Positions 36,176 through 42,336 of a stretch of DNA of 51,094 nt are shown in pieces. The position numbers and the translations under genes were made by a program. The stretch is from a virus. Taxonomy: Duplodnaviria > Caudoviricetes. The stretch is from positions 1 through 51,094 of IMG/VR virus record IMGVR_UViG_3300009597_000017. One strand, given 5' to 3'. Within the stretch, counting starts at the first letter, position 1, and every line of letters begins with the position of its first letter. The notes under the pieces were generated by a model. It made no database searches. It was given only the letters and a program-made list of their open reading frames with translations, and was not told the origin of the DNA.

Positions 36176-36177
36176 AG

Positions 36178-36253
36178 TTGCAGGTGTAGGAGTCGAACCT
36201 ACGAAGCCACGGATTCAAAGTCCGGGTACAAGTGCCGACATTGTAATCCTGCA
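36178..36253 (-). tRNA. tRNA-Gln(UUG)
   Basis: Cloverleaf; loop CT-TTG-AA; GTTCGACTC. Confidence 0.8.
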
Positions 36254-36304
36254 ATGTACTGACTCGCCGATTCGGCGAATCAGTGATTAATACTGTATTA
36301 AGAG

Positions 36305-36377
36305 CAGATCGCCAAGGAATCGAACCCTGTGGATACTCGTTTTGGAGACGAGCGCTCGCCCGGTGAGCTTGCGACCT
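36305..36377 (-). tRNA. tRNA-Trp(CCA)
   Basis: CTCGT-CT-CCA-AA-ACGAG; T-arm. Confidence 0.85.
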
Positions 36378-36411
36378 AAGACTCGGCGAGTTAAGCGCCG
36401 AGTTTAAAAGC

Positions 36412-37098
36412 TTATGGAATCTCTACAACATTGCCAGCACCAAGCGTAACAGCGGCAGTACGCGCAAGAGCGCGACCACACAGCGAGGCACGAGCGTTGA
36501 ACGTAATGCTTGCATATGCCAGAATGTTGCCCTTGATCTTTGAATCAGTGCCGAGAGTCGCTGAACTGCCGACTAGCCAGAATACATTCTTGGCAGAAGC
36601 GCCGTTTTGCAGCTTGACCGAACCAGCAATAGTCAACGACGAGCCAGCCTTGAAGACATAGACTCCATCGCCATCCAGCGTCAAATCGCCGGTTAGACCA
36701 ATCGACGATGGCGCACAATAGACGCCAGAACTCAAGACTTGACCGCCTAGATCAGATGTAATCGTCGCAGAACACGGCAAATCGCCGAGTACGCGCATAG
36801 CAAGTCGCAAGTCGTCTTGGGCCTTTGCAGCAACAGCGTCGCCCAAATGCTTCTCGCCGCTCAATTCGCACGGACCAAAGCCAGTAAGAGCTTCGCCCGG
36901 CGAGATGCCGATTGAACCATCGACTTGACCGCCGGTTACGCAAGTGACTGTCGAACCGGCAAGGATTGCAAAGCCGCTAGACGCTCCAAGGAATTCCTTG
37001 GCCGGCGGCTGTGGCGGCAAAACGTCGTCAGGACCGAGATTATGCTCGCAGCCAAATGCCAGCAAGCACGCGGCGATTAGTGAGTAGAACTTCAACAT
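36412..37098 (-). CDS. Ice-binding protein (DUF3494) lipoprotein
   Basis: Lipobox-like LAFGC; FAILAGSTVT, GISPG, AQDDL, GVY, NVFWLVGSSATLGT, GNILA..SIT, GRALARTAAVTL. Confidence 0.9.
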   Translation of the reverse strand: MLKFYSLIAACLLAFGCEHNLGPDDVLPPQPPAKEFLGASSGFAILAGSTVTCVTGGQVDGSIGISPGEALTGFGPCELSGEKHLGDAVAAKAQDDLRLAMRVLGDLPCSATITSDLGGQVLSSGVYCAPSSIGLTGDLTLDGDGVYVFKAGSSLTIAGSVKLQNGASAKNVFWLVGSSATLGTDSKIKGNILAYASITFNARASLCGRALARTAAVTLGAGNVVEIP

Positions 37099-38132
37099 TA
37101 CGAACCAACCTTTCGCAACTCAACACGACGATTCAATGGATTGTCACCTTCACGCGCTTCAGGGAATCGCGGCTGCGATTCTCCATAGCCAACGGCGTTC
37201 ATTCGACTGGCAGAAACGCCGCGGGACGCCAAGTAATTCTGAACAGATTCAGCACGAGCTTGGCTCAGCGCCTGATTGTACAACGTCGAGCCAATGCTTG
37301 ACGTGTGGCCAGCGATTTCAAACTTGACGCTCAACCACTGACTCTTGTTCAAGGCATCGGCGACACGATCAAGAATGTCCATAGCGGCAGAAGTCAACTC
37401 AGGAGAGTCGAATTCAAAATTCACGCCTTCAAGAACGAGCGTGTCTTTGATCTCAACCGTGGCAGGAGCGCAATCGCATAGAATGCGCACAGTGTCTGGC
37501 TTAGACGGCGCGTACTGAATGGCTGGCTTTTCGCGACCGTTCGTAAAGAGCGACAAACCGACGATCAACGAGTTGTTCCAAGCCGTCTTGGCGTTTGGCA
37601 ATTCGGCGAAGTGTTCAGCCGCGCGTCGAGCCTCGACCTTGAACATCACATACTTGCTCAAAGCAAGACGGAAACCAGCGCCGTAGAACGCGCCCCAAGT
37701 CGGATGCGTAACGTTGCCATTTCCAGTTACGCGAGTGAATTGAGTGCCGCCAGAAACAAATGGCGAGAACCGCGCATTCACATTGGCGGTCAGCGTCAAA
37801 TCGGCCGAAGGAGTCAAGAACTTAACTTCGCTACCATGCAGTGGCTTATAGCCAAAGGCGCCGAAGTTATTAAACGAGCGTCCACCGATTACGCCAACGC
37901 CGAATTGCACGTGCCGATTGACATTATAGCCGACTCGCGCGCCGGCAGCCGGAACGAACTGATTCTTGTTCCCGTTCGCGGCGAAGCTAGTGCTCAAAAA
38001 GTCAATCAAGTGCTTGTCGAAGTAATACGCGCCGACGCCAGCCGAATATTCAAAACTCCCCTCGCTGCGCTGAGCGGCGAGTGGAACGGCTAGACCGAGG
38101 CAAAGCAGGATTGTACAAAAGAGTTTAAACAT
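37098..38132 (-). CDS. ompA: OmpA-family outer membrane protein (beta-barrel plus peptidoglycan-binding domain)
   Basis: Signal peptide, alternating beta strands, VNFEFDS, IAGHTS, NQALSQARAESV, GYGE, NRRVE. Confidence 0.92.
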   Translation of the reverse strand: MFKLFCTILLCLGLAVPLAAQRSEGSFEYSAGVGAYYFDKHLIDFLSTSFAANGNKNQFVPAAGARVGYNVNRHVQFGVGVIGGRSFNNFGAFGYKPLHGSEVKFLTPSADLTLTANVNARFSPFVSGGTQFTRVTGNGNVTHPTWGAFYGAGFRLALSKYVMFKVEARRAAEHFAELPNAKTAWNNSLIVGLSLFTNGREKPAIQYAPSKPDTVRILCDCAPATVEIKDTLVLEGVNFEFDSPELTSAAMDILDRVADALNKSQWLSVKFEIAGHTSSIGSTLYNQALSQARAESVQNYLASRGVSASRMNAVGYGESQPRFPEAREGDNPLNRRVELRKVGS

Positions 38133-38173
38133 TAGAGCCTTTCAGAGCAAACTGCGCCGTCGATTAAGTTTGA

Positions 38174-38202
38174 AGTATAGCGCATTTTGGGCTAAAAGTC
38201 AA
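38174..38202 (-). promoter_or_regulatory. Sigma70 promoter of the ompA-IBP cassette
   Basis: TTGACT-N17-TATACT. Confidence 0.7.
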
Positions 38203-38217
38203 GAGTGGTTAAGCTTA

Positions 38218-38289
38218 TGCAGTGCCTAGGAATCGAACCTAGTCTTCCTGCGTGTCGAACAGGTGTATTCTCCAACCTACGCGCACTGC
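38218..38289 (-). tRNA. tRNA-Val(GAC), C33
   Basis: CCTGT-TC-GAC-AC-GCAGG; A73. Confidence 0.8.
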
Positions 38290-38302
38290 GGCAAATTTAG
38301 AG

Positions 38303-38374
38303 TGGAGTAGAGGGGAGTCGAACCCCCGACTGCGGTTTGCGGGACCGCCGGTTTCCCGGTTAACCTACAACCCC
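38303..38374 (-). tRNA. tRNA-Ala(CGC), C33
   Basis: G3:U70; GCGGT-CC-CGC-AA-ACCGC. Confidence 0.85.
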
Positions 38375-38386
38375 ATATTCAAAAAG

Positions 38387-38457
38387 TGGAGCGTTAGGGA
38401 TTCGAACCCTAGACTTTTGCATGCCATGCAAATGCGTTCCCACTACGCCAATGCCCC
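38387..38457 (-). tRNA. tRNA-Ala(GGC)
   Basis: G3:U70; TTTGC-AT-GGC-AT-GCAAA. Confidence 0.9.
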
Positions 38458-38460
38458 AAT

Positions 38461-38692
38461 TTGACTCAACGCGTAATAGCCGCGCTTCTGTACCTATTCC
38501 CAACATCTGTCTAAGCCCCAACCCGACGTTCTCTAGGGTCAAGCAATCGTCTGTTTGGGTTGCTGCGTTGCATCGCCTTGGGTCTTGCCGTCTTTCGACA
38601 GCGCGTGTACCATCGCGCAAAGCGACTCCCCATTGCAGGCGCGAACTTCCTCGGAGGGGTGGGCCTCCGCGTTGGGCTGCGCGTTGAATCAA
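38461..38692 (-). ncRNA. rnpB: Minimal RNase P RNA (catalytic domain, reduced specificity domain)
   Basis: CR-I GAGGAAGTTCGCGC, CR-IV TAGACAGATG, CR-V ACAGAAGCGCGGCTAT; P1-P5 pairings form, P4 with bulged U. Confidence 0.8.
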
Positions 38693-38694
38693 AA

Positions 38695-38766
38695 CTGAGG
38701 CGCTTGGACTCGAACCAAGATTTCATGGCTTAACAGGCCAGCGAGTTGCCGTTACCCTACACCCCA
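38695..38766 (-). tRNA. tRNA-Asn(GUU)
   Basis: TGGC-CT-GTT-AA-GCCA; G73. Confidence 0.9.
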
Positions 38767-38859
38767 AGGTTTAATGCCATCATGCTCCACGATGTGACAA
38801 TCGTCGCATATTCTTCGCACGACCGCGCTTCGCCTTCTCAAGATTCGTCAATGGCATAG

Positions 38860-38932
38860 TTGGAACGCAAGGGGTCGAACCTTGACTTTCGTGGTTCAGA
38901 GCCACGCGTGTTGCCGGTTACACCACGTTCCA
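38860..38932 (-). tRNA. tRNA-Gln(CUG)
   Basis: CGTGG-CT-CTG-AA-CCACG. Confidence 0.9.
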
Positions 38933-38942
38933 AGGAAGAAAG

Positions 38943-39016
38943 ACTCGCCAATGGGATTCGAACCCATAGCCTACGCCTTCGCAGGGCGTTGCTCATTCCA
39001 ATTGAGCTTCGGCGAG
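38943..39016 (-). tRNA. tRNA-Arg(GCG)
   Basis: ACGCC-CT-GCG-AA-GGCGT. Confidence 0.9.
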
Positions 39017-39087
39017 TTGAATGACATGCAACATTTATCATGGGGTCACAGTAGCTTTCGCCACGCTTAGCGCTTGCATGTCAAGAG

Positions 39088-39159
39088 TCTCGTCGGAGAG
39101 AGTCGAACTCTCACTGCGTGGTTCGAAGCCACGCCGTCTATCCGTTAGCTTACAACGAG
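39088..39159 (-). tRNA. tRNA-Arg(UCG)
   Basis: CGTGG-CT-TCG-AA-CCACG. Confidence 0.85.
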
Positions 39160-39163
39160 AAAG

Positions 39164-39236
39164 TCGGAGGGGTTGGATTCGAACCAACAACGCCTTGGGC
39201 TTCAACCAAGCGCTCTACCATTGGAGCTACCCACCG
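39164..39236 (-). tRNA. tRNA-Phe(GAA)
   Basis: CTTGG-TT-GAA-GC-CCAAG. Confidence 0.9.
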
Positions 39237-39242
39237 AAGAAG

Positions 39243-39316
39243 CGCGACTTGCCGGATTCGAACCGGCGATGTTCTCCGTGACAGGGAGACGAGGACGGCC
39301 ACTCCTCTAAAATCGC
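39243..39316 (-). tRNA. tRNA-Asp(GUC)
   Basis: TCTCC-CT-GTC-AC-GGAGA; G73. Confidence 0.9.
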
Positions 39317-39320
39317 AGAA

Positions 39321-39425
39321 TTACTTGCGCTTAAAAATCTCGTCGATGAAATTGCGAACGAGCCAAAACGCGCAACAAACGACGATTAATAAAATTGCAA
39401 CAGCAACAACGTGTTCCATAGACAT
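39321..39425 (-). CDS. Possible small membrane peptide inside the tRNA array
   Basis: MSMEHVVAVAILLIVVCCAFWLVRNFIDEIFKRK exactly fills the spacer; no clear SD. Confidence 0.35.
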   Translation of the reverse strand: MSMEHVVAVAILLIVVCCAFWLVRNFIDEIFKRK

Positions 39426-39431
39426 TAAGAG

Positions 39432-39513
39432 CGGAAACGGAGGGAATCGAACCCTCGACGCGTAAGCGCAACCGTTTTCGAGACGGGTTCCTCGACCAGC
39501 CGGACCATTTTCC
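39432..39513 (-). tRNA. tRNA-Ser(CGA)
   Basis: CCGT-CT-CGA-AA-ACGG; long variable arm; G73. Confidence 0.85.
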
Positions 39514-39618
39514 AAGCCAGGGTTTAAGGAGGGTCTGGTACCTCCAAGTCGCGCTACCCGATTTCAGTCAGGCTATCTAGATCACCCAACCGGCCTTTTG
39601 GCGGGGCCTCGCGTCATA

Positions 39619-39701
39619 CGGATTATGGAGGATTCGAACCTCCGGTGCGTTAGCACGGCGGTTTAGCAAACCGCTGCAATAAGCCTCTCTGCCAACAATC
39701 C
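39619..39701 (-). tRNA. tRNA-Ser(GCU)
   Basis: GCGGT-TT-GCT-AA-ACCGC; long variable arm. Confidence 0.9.
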
Positions 39702-39762
39702 ACAGCCCGTTTCACTTTAGCTTTACTCGCATGGAAACGGTTCAGCATAAAGAACGCGATAG

Positions 39763-39845
39763 TGGTGGAAGTACGAGTCGAACGTACAGGGGGATTAACC
39801 GGCGCTTTTACAGAGCGTTGGACCTGCCAATGTACCAATCCCACC
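39763..39845 (-). tRNA. tRNA-Tyr(GUA)
   Basis: CGCT-CT-GTA-AA-AGCG; long variable region. Confidence 0.85.
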
Positions 39846-39848
39846 AAG

Positions 39849-39920
39849 AGCCAAGGTTGGGTCTCGAACCCAAGATACCTAGGTACGAACTAGGTAGTTT
39901 ACCAACTAACTTACCGAGGC
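39849..39920 (-). tRNA. tRNA-Thr(CGU)
   Basis: CCTAG-TT-CGT-AC-CTAGG; two acceptor mismatches. Confidence 0.8.
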
Positions 39921-40020
39921 ATAACAGACACCTAGCAGAGCATCGCTGCTGTCCCATTGTACCGATGGTTGGGTCAGGGCTCCAAGAACTAGTATCCCAT
40001 CCTGACGTTAAGGTGTCTAG

Positions 40021-40095
40021 TCCGCCCTGGTGGCTTTGCTCCACCCGCCTCCGGTGTATCAGACCGACGCTCTTGACTGAATGAGCTAAGGGCGA
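40021..40095 (-). tRNA. tRNA-Ile(GAU), atypical T-loop
   Basis: TCGGT-CT-GAT-AC-ACCGG; T-loop AGCAAAG. Confidence 0.8.
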
Positions 40096-40107
40096 AAAGG
40101 TACTAAG

Positions 40108-40179
40108 TGCATCGCCAGGGTAACGATCCCCGTTCTAGTGGTTAAGAGCCACTTGCTTCACCGTTAAAGCTTGCGGTGC
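40108..40179 (-). tRNA. tRNA-Lys(CUU), atypical T-loop
   Basis: AGTGG-CT-CTT-AA-CCACT; T-loop ATCGTTA. Confidence 0.85.
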
Positions 40180-40182
40180 ATA

Positions 40183-40313
40183 TGCTTTGGCAACGAGCCT
40201 GCCCATCTGACGAATAATAAGAGACCTTCGCTAGGTTACCCCTACTTATTTATCTCTTAGTGGGAGTTGAACCCACAAGGCGTTAGGTAGGTAACACCAA
40301 ACGTGCCAAAGCA
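40183..40313 (-). ncRNA. Unknown 131-nt structured RNA with an internal T-arm
   Basis: Closing stem TGCTTTGGCA/TGCCAAAGCA; GTGGG-TTCAACT-CCCAC next to TAAGAGA/TCTCTTA. Confidence 0.5.
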
Positions 40314-40315
40314 AG

Positions 40316-40390
40316 TGCCCAACGGGGGATTCGAACCCCCATGCCGCTGTTTCTAAGACAGCGAGGTATACCAATTCCCATCAATCGGGC
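40316..40390 (-). tRNA. tRNA-Leu(UAG), short variable loop
   Basis: GCTGT-CT-TAG-AA-ACAGC; 5-nt variable loop; A73. Confidence 0.85.
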
Positions 40391-40399
40391 CTATACTTC

Positions 40400-40427
40400 A
40401 ATATAGTCAATATTACTGTATAGTCAA
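40400..40427 (-). promoter_or_regulatory. Internal promoter of the tRNA array
   Basis: TTGACT-N16-TATATT in an AT-rich spacer with tandem TATAGTCAATA. Confidence 0.55.
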
Positions 40428-40447
40428 TAGTACAATAACAACTATAG

Positions 40448-40519
40448 AGCTAACACCAGGAATCGAACCCAGCCTAGTTGCTTACCAAGCAACCGTGCCA
40501 CCAACAACACTTCACCGAC
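40448..40519 (-). tRNA. tRNA-Thr(GGU), weak acceptor stem
   Basis: GTTGC-TT-GGT-AA-GCAAC; acceptor mostly G:U pairs. Confidence 0.7.
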
Positions 40520-40540
40520 TTGTTGAATCAATGAGTCAAG

Positions 40541-40614
40541 AGCCGAATGTTGGAATCGAACCAACTCCCATCCGCATTACAAGTGCGGTGCGCGGCCATT
40601 TGCGCCAATCCGAC
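40541..40614 (-). tRNA. tRNA-Thr(UGU)
   Basis: CCGCA-CT-TGT-AA-TGCGG. Confidence 0.9.
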
Positions 40615-40694
40615 TAGAGTCACCTTGCGGGCCGCTACCCCCGCTCCGCCCCGGCCAGCCCGGCGTGCAGCGATTACACCATCGGTGATTTAAG

Positions 40695-40776
40695 TGCAGC
40701 GAAGGGGATTCGAACCCCCACGTCTTTCGACAGTGGTTTTTGAGACCACCGCGTCTGCCAGTTCCGCCAAAGCTGC
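40695..40776 (-). tRNA. tRNA-Leu(CAA)
   Basis: GTGGT-CT-CAA-AA-ACCAC; long variable arm. Confidence 0.9.
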
Positions 40777-40781
40777 AAAAA

Positions 40782-40853
40782 TGACGCGGTCGGGAATCGA
40801 ACCCGAGTTGATCGCTTGAGAGGCGACTTTCCGAACCACTAGAAGACGGCGTC
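40782..40853 (-). tRNA. tRNA-Glu(CUC)
   Basis: GTCGC-CT-CTC-AA-GCGAT. Confidence 0.9.
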
Positions 40854-40857
40854 AAAA

Positions 40858-40933
40858 TGGCGGGGGTCGGATTCGAACCGACGTCATGTGGCTTATGAGA
40901 CCACCGCTGAAACCACTCCAACACCACCCCGCT
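40858..40933 (-). tRNA. tRNA-Met(CAU), 1:72 mismatch (initiator-like)
   Basis: GTGGT-CT-CAT-AA-GCCAC; A1/C72. Confidence 0.85.
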
Positions 40934-40962
40934 ATTTGAAAAAAAAAAACAAAAAAAAAAAG

Positions 40963-41034
40963 TCCAGCCGCTAGGATTCGAACCTAGAACTCGTCGCTTA
41001 AAAGGCGTGTGCGATGCCGTTTCGCCACGACTGG
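40963..41034 (-). tRNA. tRNA-Lys(UUU)
   Basis: CGC-CT-TTT-AA-GCG; T-arm. Confidence 0.8.
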
Positions 41035-41112
41035 ATATTCAACAACTCAACGCTGTCTATACACTTGGGAATGACCCAACGTTCGTGGCGCCCACAATAG
41101 ACAGCGTCGGAA

Positions 41113-41185
41113 TTGCTCAGCAGGGAATCGAACCCTGATTGTTTCTGTGTGTAGGACAGACGCCATACCACTAGGCGACTGAGCA
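41113..41185 (-). tRNA. tRNA-Val(UAC), C33
   Basis: TCTGT-CC-TAC-AC-ACAGA. Confidence 0.85.
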
Positions 41186-41189
41186 AAAG

Positions 41190-41260
41190 TGCGGTAAGCG
41201 AGAATCGGACTCGCCCGTCTGCCTTGGCAAGGCAGCATGCCACCACAACATTTCTACCGC
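41190..41260 (-). tRNA. tRNA-Gly(GCC)
   Basis: CTGCC-TT-GCC-AA-GGCAG; T-loop TCCGATT. Confidence 0.85.
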
Positions 41261-41388
41261 GAGCGCCGTTTATTTAATGTCAACACGGCAAAATGACAGA
41301 GCGACGCGCGTCGGCGTACACTCAAAAATCTGCGCCAAATCGGGGGCACCATTGCGAAGATGTCTTTAAGAGCGTCGCAATCGCTCTA

Positions 41389-41459
41389 AGTCGCAAGCGG
41401 GAATCGAACCCGCCTCGCCAGCTTGGAAGGCTGGAACACAGCCACTATGTCACTGCGAC
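41389..41459 (-). tRNA. tRNA-Gly(UCC)
   Basis: CCAGC-CT-TCC-AA-GCTGG; U73. Confidence 0.88.
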
Positions 41460-41474
41460 GAGATCAACGAGCAA

Positions 41475-41547
41475 TACCGCTTGACGGTTCCGACCCGTCT
41501 TTTCCGGCTTGAAAGGCCGGCGTCCTAGCCAGTAGACAGAAAGCGGC
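41475..41547 (-). tRNA. tRNA-Glu(UUC)
   Basis: CCGGC-CT-TTC-AA-GCCGG; T-loop GTCGGAA. Confidence 0.85.
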
Positions 41548-41649
41548 GTGGAGTGCCTAGAGCAATAAAGCTCACATTTACTGAATTGCCCGTATTTGGC
41601 CTAGGCTTCAACGGATTCAAAGCAACGCGTCTTGGCACATTTTTAAAAG

Positions 41650-41722
41650 GGTGTATGATGGGCCTCGAACCCATTCAACCGGCTTCACAGGCCGGCGCTC
41701 TACCAGTTGAGCTACAAACACC
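41650..41722 (-). tRNA. tRNA-His(GUG)
   Basis: CCGGC-CT-GTG-AA-GCCGG; G-1:C73. Confidence 0.9.
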
Positions 41723-41740
41723 ATGATGTAAAAAGGAAAG

Positions 41741-41813
41741 ACTGACATGCTGGAATCGAACCAGCCAATCGACGTTTTGCAGACGTCAGCGTTAACCGCT
41801 TCGCCAATGTCAG
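41741..41813 (-). tRNA. tRNA-Cys(GCA)
   Basis: GACGT-CT-GCA-AA-ACGTC; U73. Confidence 0.9.
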
Positions 41814-42110
41814 AAATTAAAGGGGGATATGCGCCGGCGACCGAAGTAGAAATAAAGATCACCCGCCATTGCCCAACAGTAGGCCCGCATTGCTGCGTTC
41901 ATGGACACTTCGTCAAACGAGCCACACTGTCATGGACTTTAGTAAGTGTCAAGCAAGAGTGTTAACCCTCCATTGACCGACCGATTCACCCGAAGGCAAA
42001 CCGACTACAAACGCGTTGACTAGACGATCTAAACCCCCGCCTCCAGTGAGCGGCTAACCGCCACCGGCACATACGCCCCCAGTTTTGAAGCAGTTTTAAA
42101 AGAGCAGAAG

Positions 42111-42184
42111 TCGAGATTGTTGGAATCGAACCAACCCGATGCCCCGGTTCCGAACCGGGTTGCGCACCTTGCGCACGAACCTCG
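42111..42184 (-). tRNA. tRNA-Pro(CGG), A37
   Basis: CCCGG-TT-CGG-AA-CCGGG; C1:G72, A73. Confidence 0.85.
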
Positions 42185-42262
42185 AATATGTCGCTGCGAC
42201 TGAACGGCCAGTGGCTATAAGCCGTTTAAAGAGTGAGACCGCATCTTGGCCAGCGACAAAAG

Positions 42263-42336
42263 TCGGCACTGCTGGAATCGAACCAGCCGGTTGTCCTGTT
42301 TCCAAAACAGGCGGCACACCTTGCGCCCGAGCACCG
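42263..42336 (-). tRNA. tRNA-Pro(UGG), A37
   Basis: CCTGT-TT-TGG-AA-ACAGG; C1:G72, A73. Confidence 0.85.

What the first reader, a model, noticed from the sequence alone, without database searches (positions are those of the whole stretch)
38461..38692. Phage-encoded minimal RNase P ribozyme embedded in a 32-tRNA array
Seen on the minus strand: a 232-nt spacer closed by P1 (TTGATTCAACGCG/CGCGTTGAGTCAA), with P2 CCCAAC/GTTGGG, P3 CGGAGG/CCTCCG, CR-I GAGGAAGTTCGCGC pairing with CR-V ACAGAAGCGCGGCTAT as P4 with a bulged U, P5 CTGC/GCAG then CAA, TGCTTGA, a P18-like stem and TAGACAGATG. Established: these are the universal RNase P RNA catalytic elements, and typical bacterial RNAs are much longer. 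Here the specificity domain is only P7 plus two hairpins (one GAAA tetraloop), with P10-P14 missing as in archaeal type T RNAs. The L15 loop has no GGU to pair with CCA, matching the CCA-less phage tRNAs. Inference: the phage carries its own 5' tRNA-processing ribozyme, tolerant of odd T-loops, and borrows the host RnpA since no rnpA is visible.
Basis: partly seen in the sequence, partly recalled or inferred. Interest (0 to 1): 0.92.

Follow-up and report, generated by a model that had tools for sequence, protein, structure and literature searches.

The report
Phage-encoded miniature RNase P RNA
A 232-base spacer inside this phage's tRNA gene cluster is a real, stripped-down relative of the RNase P ribozyme that trims tRNA 5' ends, and similar genes occur in many other phages, cultured ones included, where they seem never to have been annotated.

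Summary
Window 38461-38692 (minus strand) lies between tRNA-Asn and tRNA-Ala in a 32-tRNA array. It matches Rfam's archaeal RNase P model end to end (55.4 bits, E 5.5e-15, below the gathering score of 84). P10-P12 of the specificity domain are replaced by 12 nt.

Homologues occur in related phages and in many unrelated viral contigs. One motif pair gave 67 stretches in viral contigs, at least 120 in metagenome contigs, and 4 in 185,579 prokaryote genomes, 2 of those being chance matches.

The inner helix is fully paired in 59 of 62 distinct copies, with about 12 sequence variants. P2, P3, P5, P15, P16 and a P6 pseudoknot also covary.

The architecture is a bacterial type A catalytic domain with a vestigial specificity domain.

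No RNase P protein gene was found in the window or in five other records.

Unannotated homologues sit in cultured Stenotrophomonas phage DLP_6 and Microbacterium phages.

Ten literature searches found no report of a virus-encoded RNase P RNA. Catalysis is untested.

The parts
38694..38767 (-). tRNA-Asn(gtt), directly upstream in the direction of transcription. Its 3' processing would make the 5' end of the RNase P RNA.
   Evidence: ARAGORN; Rfam tRNA 53.1 bits
38461..38692 (-). Whole miniature RNase P RNA, from the P1 5' strand to the P1 3' strand (232 nt)
   Evidence: RF00373 55.4 bits, full model; homologues and covariation
38680..38692 (-). P1 5' strand, UUGAUUCAACGCG
   Evidence: compensatory changes in the 5-sequence alignment; matched versus swapped flanks
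38670..38676 (-). P2 5' strand, CCCAACG (7 bp helix)
   Evidence: 98-100% paired; 6 of 7 pairs covary
38652..38669 (-). P3 hairpin, CGGAGG-CCCACC-CCUCCG
   Evidence: the three base pairs at its foot are 99% paired; length varies among homologues
38639..38652 (-). CR-I and P4 5' strand, GAGGAAGUUCGCGC, with the bulged U
38635..38638 (-). P5 5' strand, CUGC
   Evidence: 98.9% paired; all 4 pairs covary
38628..38632 (-). J5/7 segment UGGGG, the 5' strand of the P6 pseudoknot
   Evidence: at least 5 bp in 44 of 44; 29 helix variants
38567..38627 (-). Vestigial specificity domain: P7, the P8 hairpin (loop AUGGUACA) and the P9 hairpin (GAAA loop). P10-P12 are absent.
   Evidence: 87 model positions replaced by 12 nt; P9 is deleted in L012 and L005. 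P7 pairing was read by eye and not tested formally.
38560..38566 (-). P5 3' strand GCAG and J5/15 CAA
38517..38559 (-). P15-P16-P17 arm. P15 is CCCAA with UUGGG. L15 is ACA opposite GGG(U), with the GGG at 38522-38524. P16 is GACG with CGUC. P17 is CUU with GAG. The loop carries CCCUA (38534-38538), the P6 3' strand.
38506..38516 (-). J15/2 (CR-IV), GCUUAGACAGA
   Evidence: alignment to the consensus GCuuAGucGAAUG; invariant columns
38499..38505 (-). P2 3' strand, UGUUGGG
38476..38498 (-). J2/4 (AAUAGGU) and CR-V with the P4 3' strand (ACAGAAGCGCGGCUAU)
38461..38473 (-). P1 3' strand, CGCGUUGAGUCAA
38386..38457 (-). tRNA-Ala(ggc), which begins 3-4 nt after P1. RNase P cleavage at its +1 would make the 3' end of the RNase P RNA.
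   Evidence: ARAGORN; Rfam tRNA 58 bits

Best explanation
The spacer encodes a phage-borne, reduced RNase P RNA.

What it consists of. It is a bacterial type A catalytic domain: P1-P5, the P4 pseudoknot with a bulged U, J5/15 CAA, P15-P16-P17 with GGGU in L15, the P6 pseudoknot, CR-IV and CR-V. The specificity domain is cut down to P7-P9.

How it probably works. It is transcribed inside the polycistronic tRNA precursor. Ordinary 3' processing of the upstream tRNA-Asn would free its 5' end. RNase P cleavage at +1 of the downstream tRNA-Ala would free its 3' end. The P1 stem would then close the molecule. It would go on to remove 5' leaders from the phage's 32 pre-tRNAs. Its protein partner is most likely the host's RnpA, which in bacteria binds the catalytic domain; that last point is recalled, not tested.

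Shown here: homology, conservation of structure, restriction to viruses, linkage to tRNAs, and absence of a known RNase P protein gene.

Inferred: the route of release from the precursor, catalytic activity, the RnpA partnership, and the benefit to the phage. Candidate benefits are extra or host-independent capacity for a burst of phage tRNAs, or relaxed recognition of the T-loop and D-loop.
For: 1. Covariance-model match. RF00373 hits over its full length at 55.4 bits, E 5.5e-15. In the passages read from PMC3579882, genuine non-type-T archaeal RNase P RNAs score 53.55-228.58 bits with this model, and random genomes score at most 14.34.
2. P4. Of 62 distinct copies, 59 have all 6 inner pairs, in about 12 sequence variants. 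Four of those six pairs were left free by the search pattern. Two of the three failures (L098, L099) look like chance hits; the third, L060, has 5 of 6 pairs. An independent metagenome set gives 96 of 106.
3. Whole structure, on a MAFFT alignment of 44 homologues. Of all cells, 91.2% are paired, against 69.5% in shuffles (0 of 500 shuffles reach it) and 27-46% when partners are slid. The covariation score is 0.555 against 0.137. By helix, the percentage paired is 99 for the foot of P3, 99.7 for P4, 98.9 for P5, 94 for P15 and 97 for P16.
4. P6 pseudoknot. At least 5 contiguous pairs in 44 of 44, in 29 variants, against 44% of swapped partners.
5. CGGGU in L15 is at least 90% conserved and aligns with the class A consensus.
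6. Distribution. The motif pair gives 67 stretches in viral contigs and 4 in one genome each of 185,579 prokaryote species, 2 of which are chance.
7. tRNA linkage. Of 60 distinct copies, 39 have at least 3 tRNAs within 3 kb and 31 abut a same-strand tRNA.
8. It is not coding. Homologues differ by indels of 10 and 47 nt in P9 and P3.
9. Plausibility of activity. [quoted passage not shown] These RNAs keep P6.
Against: - No activity, expression or end-mapping data exist for the window RNA.
- The only RNA-library signal is weak. One 291-nt contig in a metatranscriptome run shares 58 identical bases of the P5-P15 core but differs on both flanks, so it comes from a relative, and DNA carry-over is not excluded.
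- The Rfam score is below the curated gathering score.
- More distant members (L021, L028, L031, L032, L033) match no Rfam RNase P model.
- CR-II, CR-III and P10-P12 are missing. These normally bind the tRNA elbow.
- Three related phages (L002, L003, L013; major capsid protein 76% identical) have tRNA-Asn and tRNA-Ala 12 nt apart and no copy in the fetched loci. The element is therefore dispensable in close kin.
- The MFE z-score of the single sequence is only -2.11.
- Ascertainment. The outer five P4 pairs were fixed by the search pattern. The 44 aligned sequences were chosen for a detectable P1 and P2, so the counts for those two helices are biased.
- No known RNase P protein gene is present. 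A partner must therefore be assumed.
Confidence: 0.68

Rival explanations
1. RnpA sponge or competitor. The RNA keeps the catalytic-domain surface that binds the host RNase P protein. It acts mainly by drawing RnpA away from host M1 RNA, which would shut down or redirect host tRNA maturation. It does little or no catalysis itself.
For: No phage rnpA was found in 6 of 6 records searched, so any protein partner must be the host's. The S-domain that gives substrate affinity is largely gone.
Against: A phage with 32 tRNA genes of its own needs RNase P activity, so blocking it would hurt the phage. Elements that matter for catalysis and substrate binding are conserved and covary: the bulged U in P4, J5/15 CAA, L15 GGGU and P6. 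A protein decoy would not need them.
Confidence: 0.1
2. An RNase P-like fold put to another use. For example, it could act only in cis on the neighbouring tRNA, cleave some other phage or host RNA, or serve as a folding or processing scaffold within the tRNA precursor.
For: 31 of 60 copies abut a tRNA. 15 of 60 have no tRNA within 3 kb; these are mostly contigs of very large phages, so tRNA adjacency is not obligatory. Distant members no longer match any Rfam RNase P model.
Against: The conserved set is the tRNA-cleaving core, including the L15 GGU that pairs with the tRNA 3' end. Nothing seen here points to any other substrate.
Confidence: 0.15
3. A decaying remnant of a captured host rnpB gene with no function.
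For: About 40% of a normal bacterial RNase P RNA is missing. Close relatives lack the element.
Against: Compensatory changes keep every core helix across dozens of diverged copies. The form is almost confined to viruses. Sequence changes concentrate in P3 and the S-domain while the core is kept.
Confidence: 0.02

Closest known systems
Bacterial type A RNase P RNA (Rfam RF00010; E. coli M1 RNA, rnpB)
   Same: It shares P1-P5, P4 with a bulged U, J5/15 CAA, P15-P16-P17 with GGGU on the 3' side of L15, the P6 pseudoknot, the CR-I, CR-IV and CR-V motifs, and a 7-bp P2. Sister forms in phages that keep the canonical CR-I score 63.5-118.5 bits on RF00010.
   Different: It is 232 nt against 377 nt. 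It lacks P10-P14, CR-II and CR-III, and the window copy lacks P18. The P4 sequence is GUUCGCG, not GUCCGGG. It is encoded by viruses, usually inside tRNA arrays. The window copy is below the Rfam gathering score.
[quoted passage not shown]
   Same: It is a natural RNase P RNA of about 200 nt that has a normal catalytic domain and has lost most of the specificity domain.
   Different: Type T has a 3-bp P2 and is missed by RF00373 (not detected, or up to 10.2 bits). It occurs in one archaeal family and works with archaeal proteins. The phage RNA has a 7-bp P2 and scores 55.4 bits on RF00373. No Pop5 or Rpp29 gene is present.
Engineered C-domain-only RNase P RNAs (Eco CP RPR, Pfu C-domain; PMC5839562, abstract read)
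   Same: They are a catalytic domain without the S-domain. They are reported active with and without protein, with efficiency depending on a P6-like pairing. The phage RNAs keep P6.
   Different: They are laboratory deletions, not natural genes. The phage RNAs keep a small, conserved P7-P9 remnant.
Reduced RNase P RNAs that lack P12, in some Candidate Phyla Radiation (CPR) bacteria and Mycoplasma fermentans (PMC8172020, passages read)
   Same: They have lost helices once thought universal, and they are found only below Rfam thresholds.
   Different: They are the cell's own single essential gene, and some have lost the L15 UGG/GGU motif. The phage form keeps it and is carried by a virus.
Theta ribozymes: minimal HDV-like self-cleaving ribozymes next to phage tRNAs (bioRxiv 10.1101/2023.06.13.544163, passages read)
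   Same: They are phage-encoded ribozymes set beside phage tRNA genes, proposed to make tRNA maturation independent of host nucleases.
   Different: They are an unrelated fold, cut themselves in cis, and act at the 3' trailer. The RNA here is a homologue of a trans-acting 5' endonuclease.

Membership tests
RNase P RNA (Rfam clan CL00002) | A P4 helix between CR-I and CR-V, with a bulged U | tested here: met
   Inner helix fully paired in 59 of 62 distinct copies, about 12 variants. 99.7% of cells paired and 3 pairs covary in 44 sequences. 96 of 106 in metagenome copies.
RNase P RNA (Rfam clan CL00002) | Conserved CR-I, CR-IV and CR-V sequence motifs and the J5/15 linker | tested here: met
   Alignment to the RF00373 consensus. 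Invariant or nearly invariant columns in 44 sequences. Comparison with the class A consensus.
RNase P RNA (Rfam clan CL00002) | Nested P1, P2, P3 and P5 framework | tested here: met
   RNAalifold: 27 of 51 pairs carry compensatory changes. Pair counts. P1 matched versus swapped flanks: mean 10.7 against 7.6 bp. The P1 and P2 counts are biased by how the sequences were selected.
RNase P RNA (Rfam clan CL00002) | Specificity domain with P10-P12, CR-II and CR-III | tested here: not met
   87 model positions are replaced by 12 nt.
RNase P RNA (Rfam clan CL00002) | Score at or above a family's curated gathering threshold | tested here: not met
   55.4 bits against 84 for RF00373. No RNase P match in the default scan. 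One sister form, L102, passes RF00010 with 118.5 against 100.
RNase P RNA (Rfam clan CL00002) | Cleaves pre-tRNA at +1 | not testable with these tools
The reads gave no ends.
Bacterial type A (RF00010) | P15-P16-P17 arm with GGU in L15, and a P6 pseudoknot to J5/7 | tested here: met
   P17 could not be counted on the MAFFT alignment (43.8% paired because of misalignment). It is supported by 5-sequence covariation.
Bacterial type A (RF00010) | P13, P14 and P18 | tested here: not met
   Absent from the window copy. P18-like GNRA hairpins are present in some homologues, for example L044 and L045.
Bacterial type A (RF00010) | Partner protein RnpA | tested here: inconclusive
   PF00825 was found in 0 of 1 (window) and 0 of 5 other records; the control genomes ring in 10 of 14. 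Use of the host's RnpA cannot be tested here.
Archaeal type T | P2 of only 3 bp | tested here: not met
   P2 is 7 bp. Criterion taken from PMC3579882.
Archaeal type T | Missed by RF00373 | tested here: not met
   RF00373 gives 55.4 bits for the window and 48.9 bits for L019. Type T scores from not detected up to 10.2 bits in PMC3579882 Table 1.
Archaeal type T | [quoted passage not shown] | tested here: met

The most novel reading that the evidence does not exclude
Bacteriophages carry their own lineage of working RNase P ribozymes. These would be the first virus-encoded RNase P and the smallest natural bacterial-type form (about 190-275 nt). They are released from tRNA precursors by the same reactions they catalyse. 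They are widespread: at least 60 distinct copies in viral contigs, more than 100 in metagenome contigs, very large phages of 494-735 kb, and cultured Stenotrophomonas and Microbacterium phages. This would make the maturation of phage tRNAs partly independent of host rnpB.
Probability: 0.6. Interest if true: 0.92.

Novelty: new variant of a known kind. Interest (0 to 1): 0.86.

Why it matters
RNase P RNA is treated as a hallmark of cells, and the searches made here found no virus said to encode one.

A natural family of about 200 nt that keeps the catalytic domain and P6 but discards P10-P14 is an evolutionary experiment on the minimal bacterial ribozyme. It can be set against decades of deletion work.

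It would add 5' processing to the list of translation functions that phages bring with them, alongside tRNAs, tmRNA and 3'-trailer ribozymes. It also bears on why phages carry large tRNA arrays.

Homologues sit unannotated in cultured phages of harmless or routine laboratory hosts (Microbacterium foliorum, Stenotrophomonas maltophilia), so the idea can be tested directly.

In practice, default Rfam thresholds miss most of these genes. A dedicated covariance model would annotate hundreds of them.

Tried and rejected
Searches and steps that led nowhere:
- blastn of the element and megablast of 18 kb of the window against 50,697 phage records gave no match.
- tblastn of the major capsid protein gave no match. 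The terminase has only about 32% identity to HMO-2011-type podophages, so no host can be named.
- The search for related loci with the 344-aa protein next to the array gave no confirmed relative.
- The 18-base CR-I pattern alone also picked up about 11 loci that match the family HMM only locally over about 22 nt (L024, L027, L029, L034, L036-L042). They are treated as chance.
- L098 and L099 from genome contigs fail P4 pairing and the HMM, and are treated as chance.
- blastn of the L021 copy against the phage records gave no match.
- The Acinetobacter 'phage MD-2021a' records and a Salmonella record hit by the L102 copy look like ordinary bacterial rnpB in records of doubtful viral origin. They were not used.

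Analyses that did not work as hoped:
I used nhmmer profiles and MAFFT alignments instead. The family therefore has no structure-aware alignment. P17, the fourth P16 pair and P7 could not be counted.
- The swapped-partner control for P2 does not discriminate: 97% of matched pairs against 53% of swapped pairs reach 7 bp, because many copies share similar P2 sequences.
- Single-sequence folding is only mildly better than shuffles (z -2.11) and does not reproduce the pseudoknotted fold.

Sequencing runs:
- 13 runs hold at least half of the sampled words, and 7 of those may be the source. All runs holding at least half of the words are DNA or contig data labelled groundwater or freshwater sediment.
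- The single RNA run held 5% of the words. When laid, it gave one contig with 58 identical bases from a relative. This does not show expression of the window RNA.
- Parts of the stretch without cover in those runs are not evidence of anything.

Protein searches: RNase P proteins Pop5, Rpp29 and PIN_5 (the HARP family) gave no match in the window.

Rejected reading: a protein-coding reading of the 110-aa ORF at 38360-38692(-). It runs through a tRNA gene, and the homologues differ by indels that are not multiples of three.

Literature: ten full-text searches and passages from seven papers found no virus-encoded RNase P RNA. The main text of the huge-phage paper PMC7162821 contains neither 'RNase P' nor 'ribozyme'. 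Supplements are closed and subscription journals are not searched, so a prior mention cannot be excluded.

Recalled, not taken from any call: the E. coli residue numbers (U69, A248, G292-U294); that RnpA binds the C-domain near CR-IV and CR-V; and that phage T4 has stable small RNAs of unknown function in its tRNA cluster.
Full report
**What the window is.** The window is a whole IMG/VR virus record of 51,094 bp, rated 100% complete by CheckV. It has a portal protein, a large terminase, a major head protein and a family A DNA polymerase. The terminase is only about 32% identical to HMO-2011-type podophages, and the capsid protein has no match among 50,697 phage records. The host is therefore unknown. 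ARAGORN finds 30 tRNA genes, all on the minus strand between 36177 and 42336. 29 of the 30 have no encoded CCA.

**The observation.** At Rfam's gathering thresholds nothing but tRNAs is reported. With an E-value threshold on 38380-38780, the archaeal RNase P model RF00373 matches 38466-38687(-) from model position 1 to 288 at 55.4 bits, E 5.5e-15. P1, P2, P3, P5, P7, P8, P9 and P15-16 are in place, and 87 model positions (P10-P12) are replaced by 12 nt. In passages read from PMC3579882, this same model gives 53.55-228.58 bits for genuine archaeal RNase P RNAs other than type T, and at most 14.34 bits on random genomes.

**Homologues in related phages.** Twelve loci encode a major capsid protein 73-84% identical to the window's. 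Four of them (L012, L005, L007, L006) hold a homologue at the same place in the array, downstream of tRNA-Asn. L005 and L007 carry the same copy. A motif scan added L017 and L019, which again share one copy. The five distinct copies differ by a 10-nt deletion that removes P9 and by a 47-nt insertion that lengthens P3. This excludes a coding reading of the overlapping 110-aa ORF. RNAalifold predicts 51 pairs, of which 27 carry compensatory changes. Three other relatives (L002, L003, L013) have tRNA-Asn and tRNA-Ala 12 nt apart and no copy in the fetched loci. Within this phage group the element is therefore present in some phages and absent in others.

**A much wider family.**
- A profile of the five copies found full-length matches (E 2.8e-14 to 7.6e-07) in 13 further loci from unrelated viral contigs. 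These range from AT-rich to GC-rich. Some of the contigs are 370-518 kb long.
- The pattern GAGGAAGTTCG-N(127-157)-ACARRA-NNNN-GGCTA matched 67 stretches in viral contigs.
- It matched only 4 stretches in one genome for each of 185,579 prokaryote species. Two of those four fail both P4 pairing and the family profile. The other two lie on MAG contigs of 2-3 kb.
- blastn with one copy reached two very large uncultured phages (735 kb and 595 kb) and the cultured Stenotrophomonas phage vB_SmaS-DLP_6. In DLP_6 the copy fills an unannotated gap just before tRNA-Arg-CCG.
- A second pattern, built on the canonical CR-I and CR-V motifs, found four more RNAs of about 200 nt in viral tRNA arrays. They hit the bacterial class A model RF00010 at 63.5, 63.8, 71.7 and 118.5 bits, the last above the gathering score of 100.
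- One of these four types is 91-99.5% identical to sequence in Microbacterium phages A3Wally, Zooman and Big4 and a fourth record whose name was masked. In Zooman it fills the 215-nt gap between tRNA-Arg(ccg) and tRNA-Arg(cct) and carries no annotation.

**Structure.**
- *P4.* The pattern left free the three bases after GAGGAAGUUCG and the four bases before GGCUA. In 59 of 62 distinct copies all six inner pairs form, in about 12 variants such as CGA/UCG, GGA/UCC, CUG/CAG, CCA/UGG, ACG/CGU and AUA/UAU. In the metagenome set, 96 of 106 distinct copies do so.
- *Selection of the alignment.* There were 60 distinct copies after removing the two chance hits. I aligned 44 with MAFFT. The 16 dropped were 6 with no P2 detected under a strict rule, 9 with a detected P1 shorter than 7 bp, and L057.
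- *Pair counts on that alignment.* 91.2% of 1,491 cells are standard pairs, against 69.5% in column shuffles (0 of 500 reach it) and 27-46% when partners are slid by 1-3 columns. The covariation score is 0.555 against 0.137. By helix, the percentage paired is 98-100 for P2, 99 for the foot of P3, 99.7 for P4, 98.9 for P5, 94 for P15 and 97 for P16.
- *Biases.* P1 and P2 were used to select the sequences, so their figures are biased. The outer five P4 pairs were fixed by the pattern. P17 and the fourth P16 pair were misaligned and could not be counted.
- *P1, without selection.* Matched flanks give a mean longest helix of 10.7 bp, against 7.6 bp for swapped flanks (59 copies).
- *P6.* A pseudoknot between the segment after P5 and the P17 loop has at least 5 contiguous pairs in 44 of 44, with 29 different helix sequences, against 44% of swapped partners.

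**What kind of RNase P RNA it is.** The combination of a 7-bp P2, the P15-P16-P17 arm, P6 and, in some members, GNRA-capped P18-like hairpins is bacterial type A. The CR-I-canonical sister forms hit RF00010. Type T, by the passages read, has a 3-bp P2 and is invisible to RF00373, so the window RNA is not a member. The 3' side of the P15/P16 internal loop reads CGGGU. These columns are at least 90% conserved in 44 sequences. They line up with the CGGGUa of the class A consensus and of E. coli rnpB. PMC8172020 calls this the UGG motif that binds the CCA end. More distant members of the family (L021, L028, L031, L032, L033) match no Rfam RNase P model at all. The window's subgroup is the bridge that reveals what they are.

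**Context and partners.** Of the 60 distinct copies, 39 have at least 3 tRNAs within 3 kb, 45 have at least one, and 31 abut a same-strand tRNA. The other 15 have no tRNA within 3 kb; they lie mostly in contigs of very large phages, and at least three of these copies (L022, L025, L028) end in a P1 stem followed by a run of U. Six-frame searches found no RnpA in the window or in five other records: DLP_6, the 735-kb and 595-kb phages, and two viral contigs of 494 kb and 519 kb. The control rings in 10 of 14 genomes. No Pop5, Rpp29 or PIN_5/HARP was found in the window.

**Mechanism.** The RNA is most simply read as a working catalytic subunit. In the window, P1 begins 1-2 nt after the discriminator base of tRNA-Asn and ends 3-4 nt before tRNA-Ala +1. 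Normal tRNA 3' processing and RNase P cleavage would therefore release it with P1 closed. This is an inference from the anatomy. [quoted passage not shown] The phage RNAs keep and drop the corresponding elements. Use of the host RnpA is inferred from the absence of any phage protein candidate, and from my recollection that RnpA binds the catalytic domain. The benefit to the phage is speculative. It could be more capacity for a burst of 32 tRNAs, independence from host rnpB during takeover, or relaxed recognition of the tRNA elbow.

**Evidence against, and gaps.**
- There is no activity or end-mapping evidence.
- One metatranscriptome contig shares 58 identical bases of the core with different flanks, so it comes from a relative, and DNA carry-over is possible.
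- A cave-metagenome contig is a variant whose differences cluster in P3 and the S-domain. One of them would break a P3 pair.
- Close relatives do without the element.
- The counts use MAFFT alignments and do not correct for phylogeny.

**Novelty.** Ten full-text searches and passages from seven papers turned up no virus-encoded RNase P RNA. These included a 2024 RNase P review, the huge-phage paper and the theta-ribozyme preprint. GenBank annotations of DLP_6 and Zooman show nothing at the sites. I rate it a new variant of a known kind: a virus-borne, miniature bacterial-type RNase P RNA.

**Verdict.**
- Observation: confirmed.
- Interpretation: partly supported. The identity is right. The L15/CCA claim and the type T likeness are wrong. 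Function is untested.
- Confidence that it is a selected RNase P RNA homologue: about 0.93.
- Confidence that it acts in tRNA 5' maturation as described: about 0.68.

Noticed in passing
L025 6676-6770: ARAGORN reports a tRNA with a four-base anticodon (aggg) in a viral tRNA array that also holds a mini RNase P RNA. It may be a quadruplet-decoding or frameshift-suppressor tRNA.
   Followed up: no
L022 8568-8641; L026 5644-5717; L032 5497-5648: Large viral contigs that carry the mini RNase P RNA away from tRNA arrays also hold tRNA genes with a CUA anticodon, which ARAGORN calls 'Pyl'. This suggests TAG-suppressing or recoded phages.
   Followed up: no
L002 4860-5309 (same in L003 and L013): Relatives of the window phage that lack the RNase P RNA have an unexplained gap of about 450 nt between tRNA-Gln(ctg) and tRNA-Arg(ccg). 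The family profile does not hit it.
   Followed up: partly
L101 676-884, L102 10596-10802, L103 1378-1575, L104 2248-2468: A second set of RNase P RNAs of about 200 nt in viral tRNA arrays. They keep the canonical CR-I (GAGGAAAGUCC) and hit RF00010 at 63.5-118.5 bits. The L104 type occurs in cultured Microbacterium phages A3Wally, Zooman and Big4 and is unannotated.
   Followed up: partly
L044 2304-2548 (KU682439.2, about 105774-106018): Stenotrophomonas phage vB_SmaS-DLP_6, a cultured 168-kb phage, has a 245-nt homologue with extra P18-like hairpins in an unannotated gap before tRNA-Arg-CCG.
   Followed up: partly
window 41814-42109: A 296-nt gap inside the tRNA array has no tRNA, no Rfam match at E up to 0.1 and no convincing ORF.
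   Followed up: partly
window tRNA genes, 36177-42336: Most tRNA genes are followed by a C and then a U-rich trailer. 29 of 30 lack an encoded CCA, and many are only 2-12 nt apart. Maturation therefore needs 3' trimming and CCA addition by host enzymes.
   Followed up: partly
L008: A relative by capsid protein (73% identity) shows only 3 tRNAs where the others have 28-33. The tRNA array itself therefore varies within the group.
   Followed up: no
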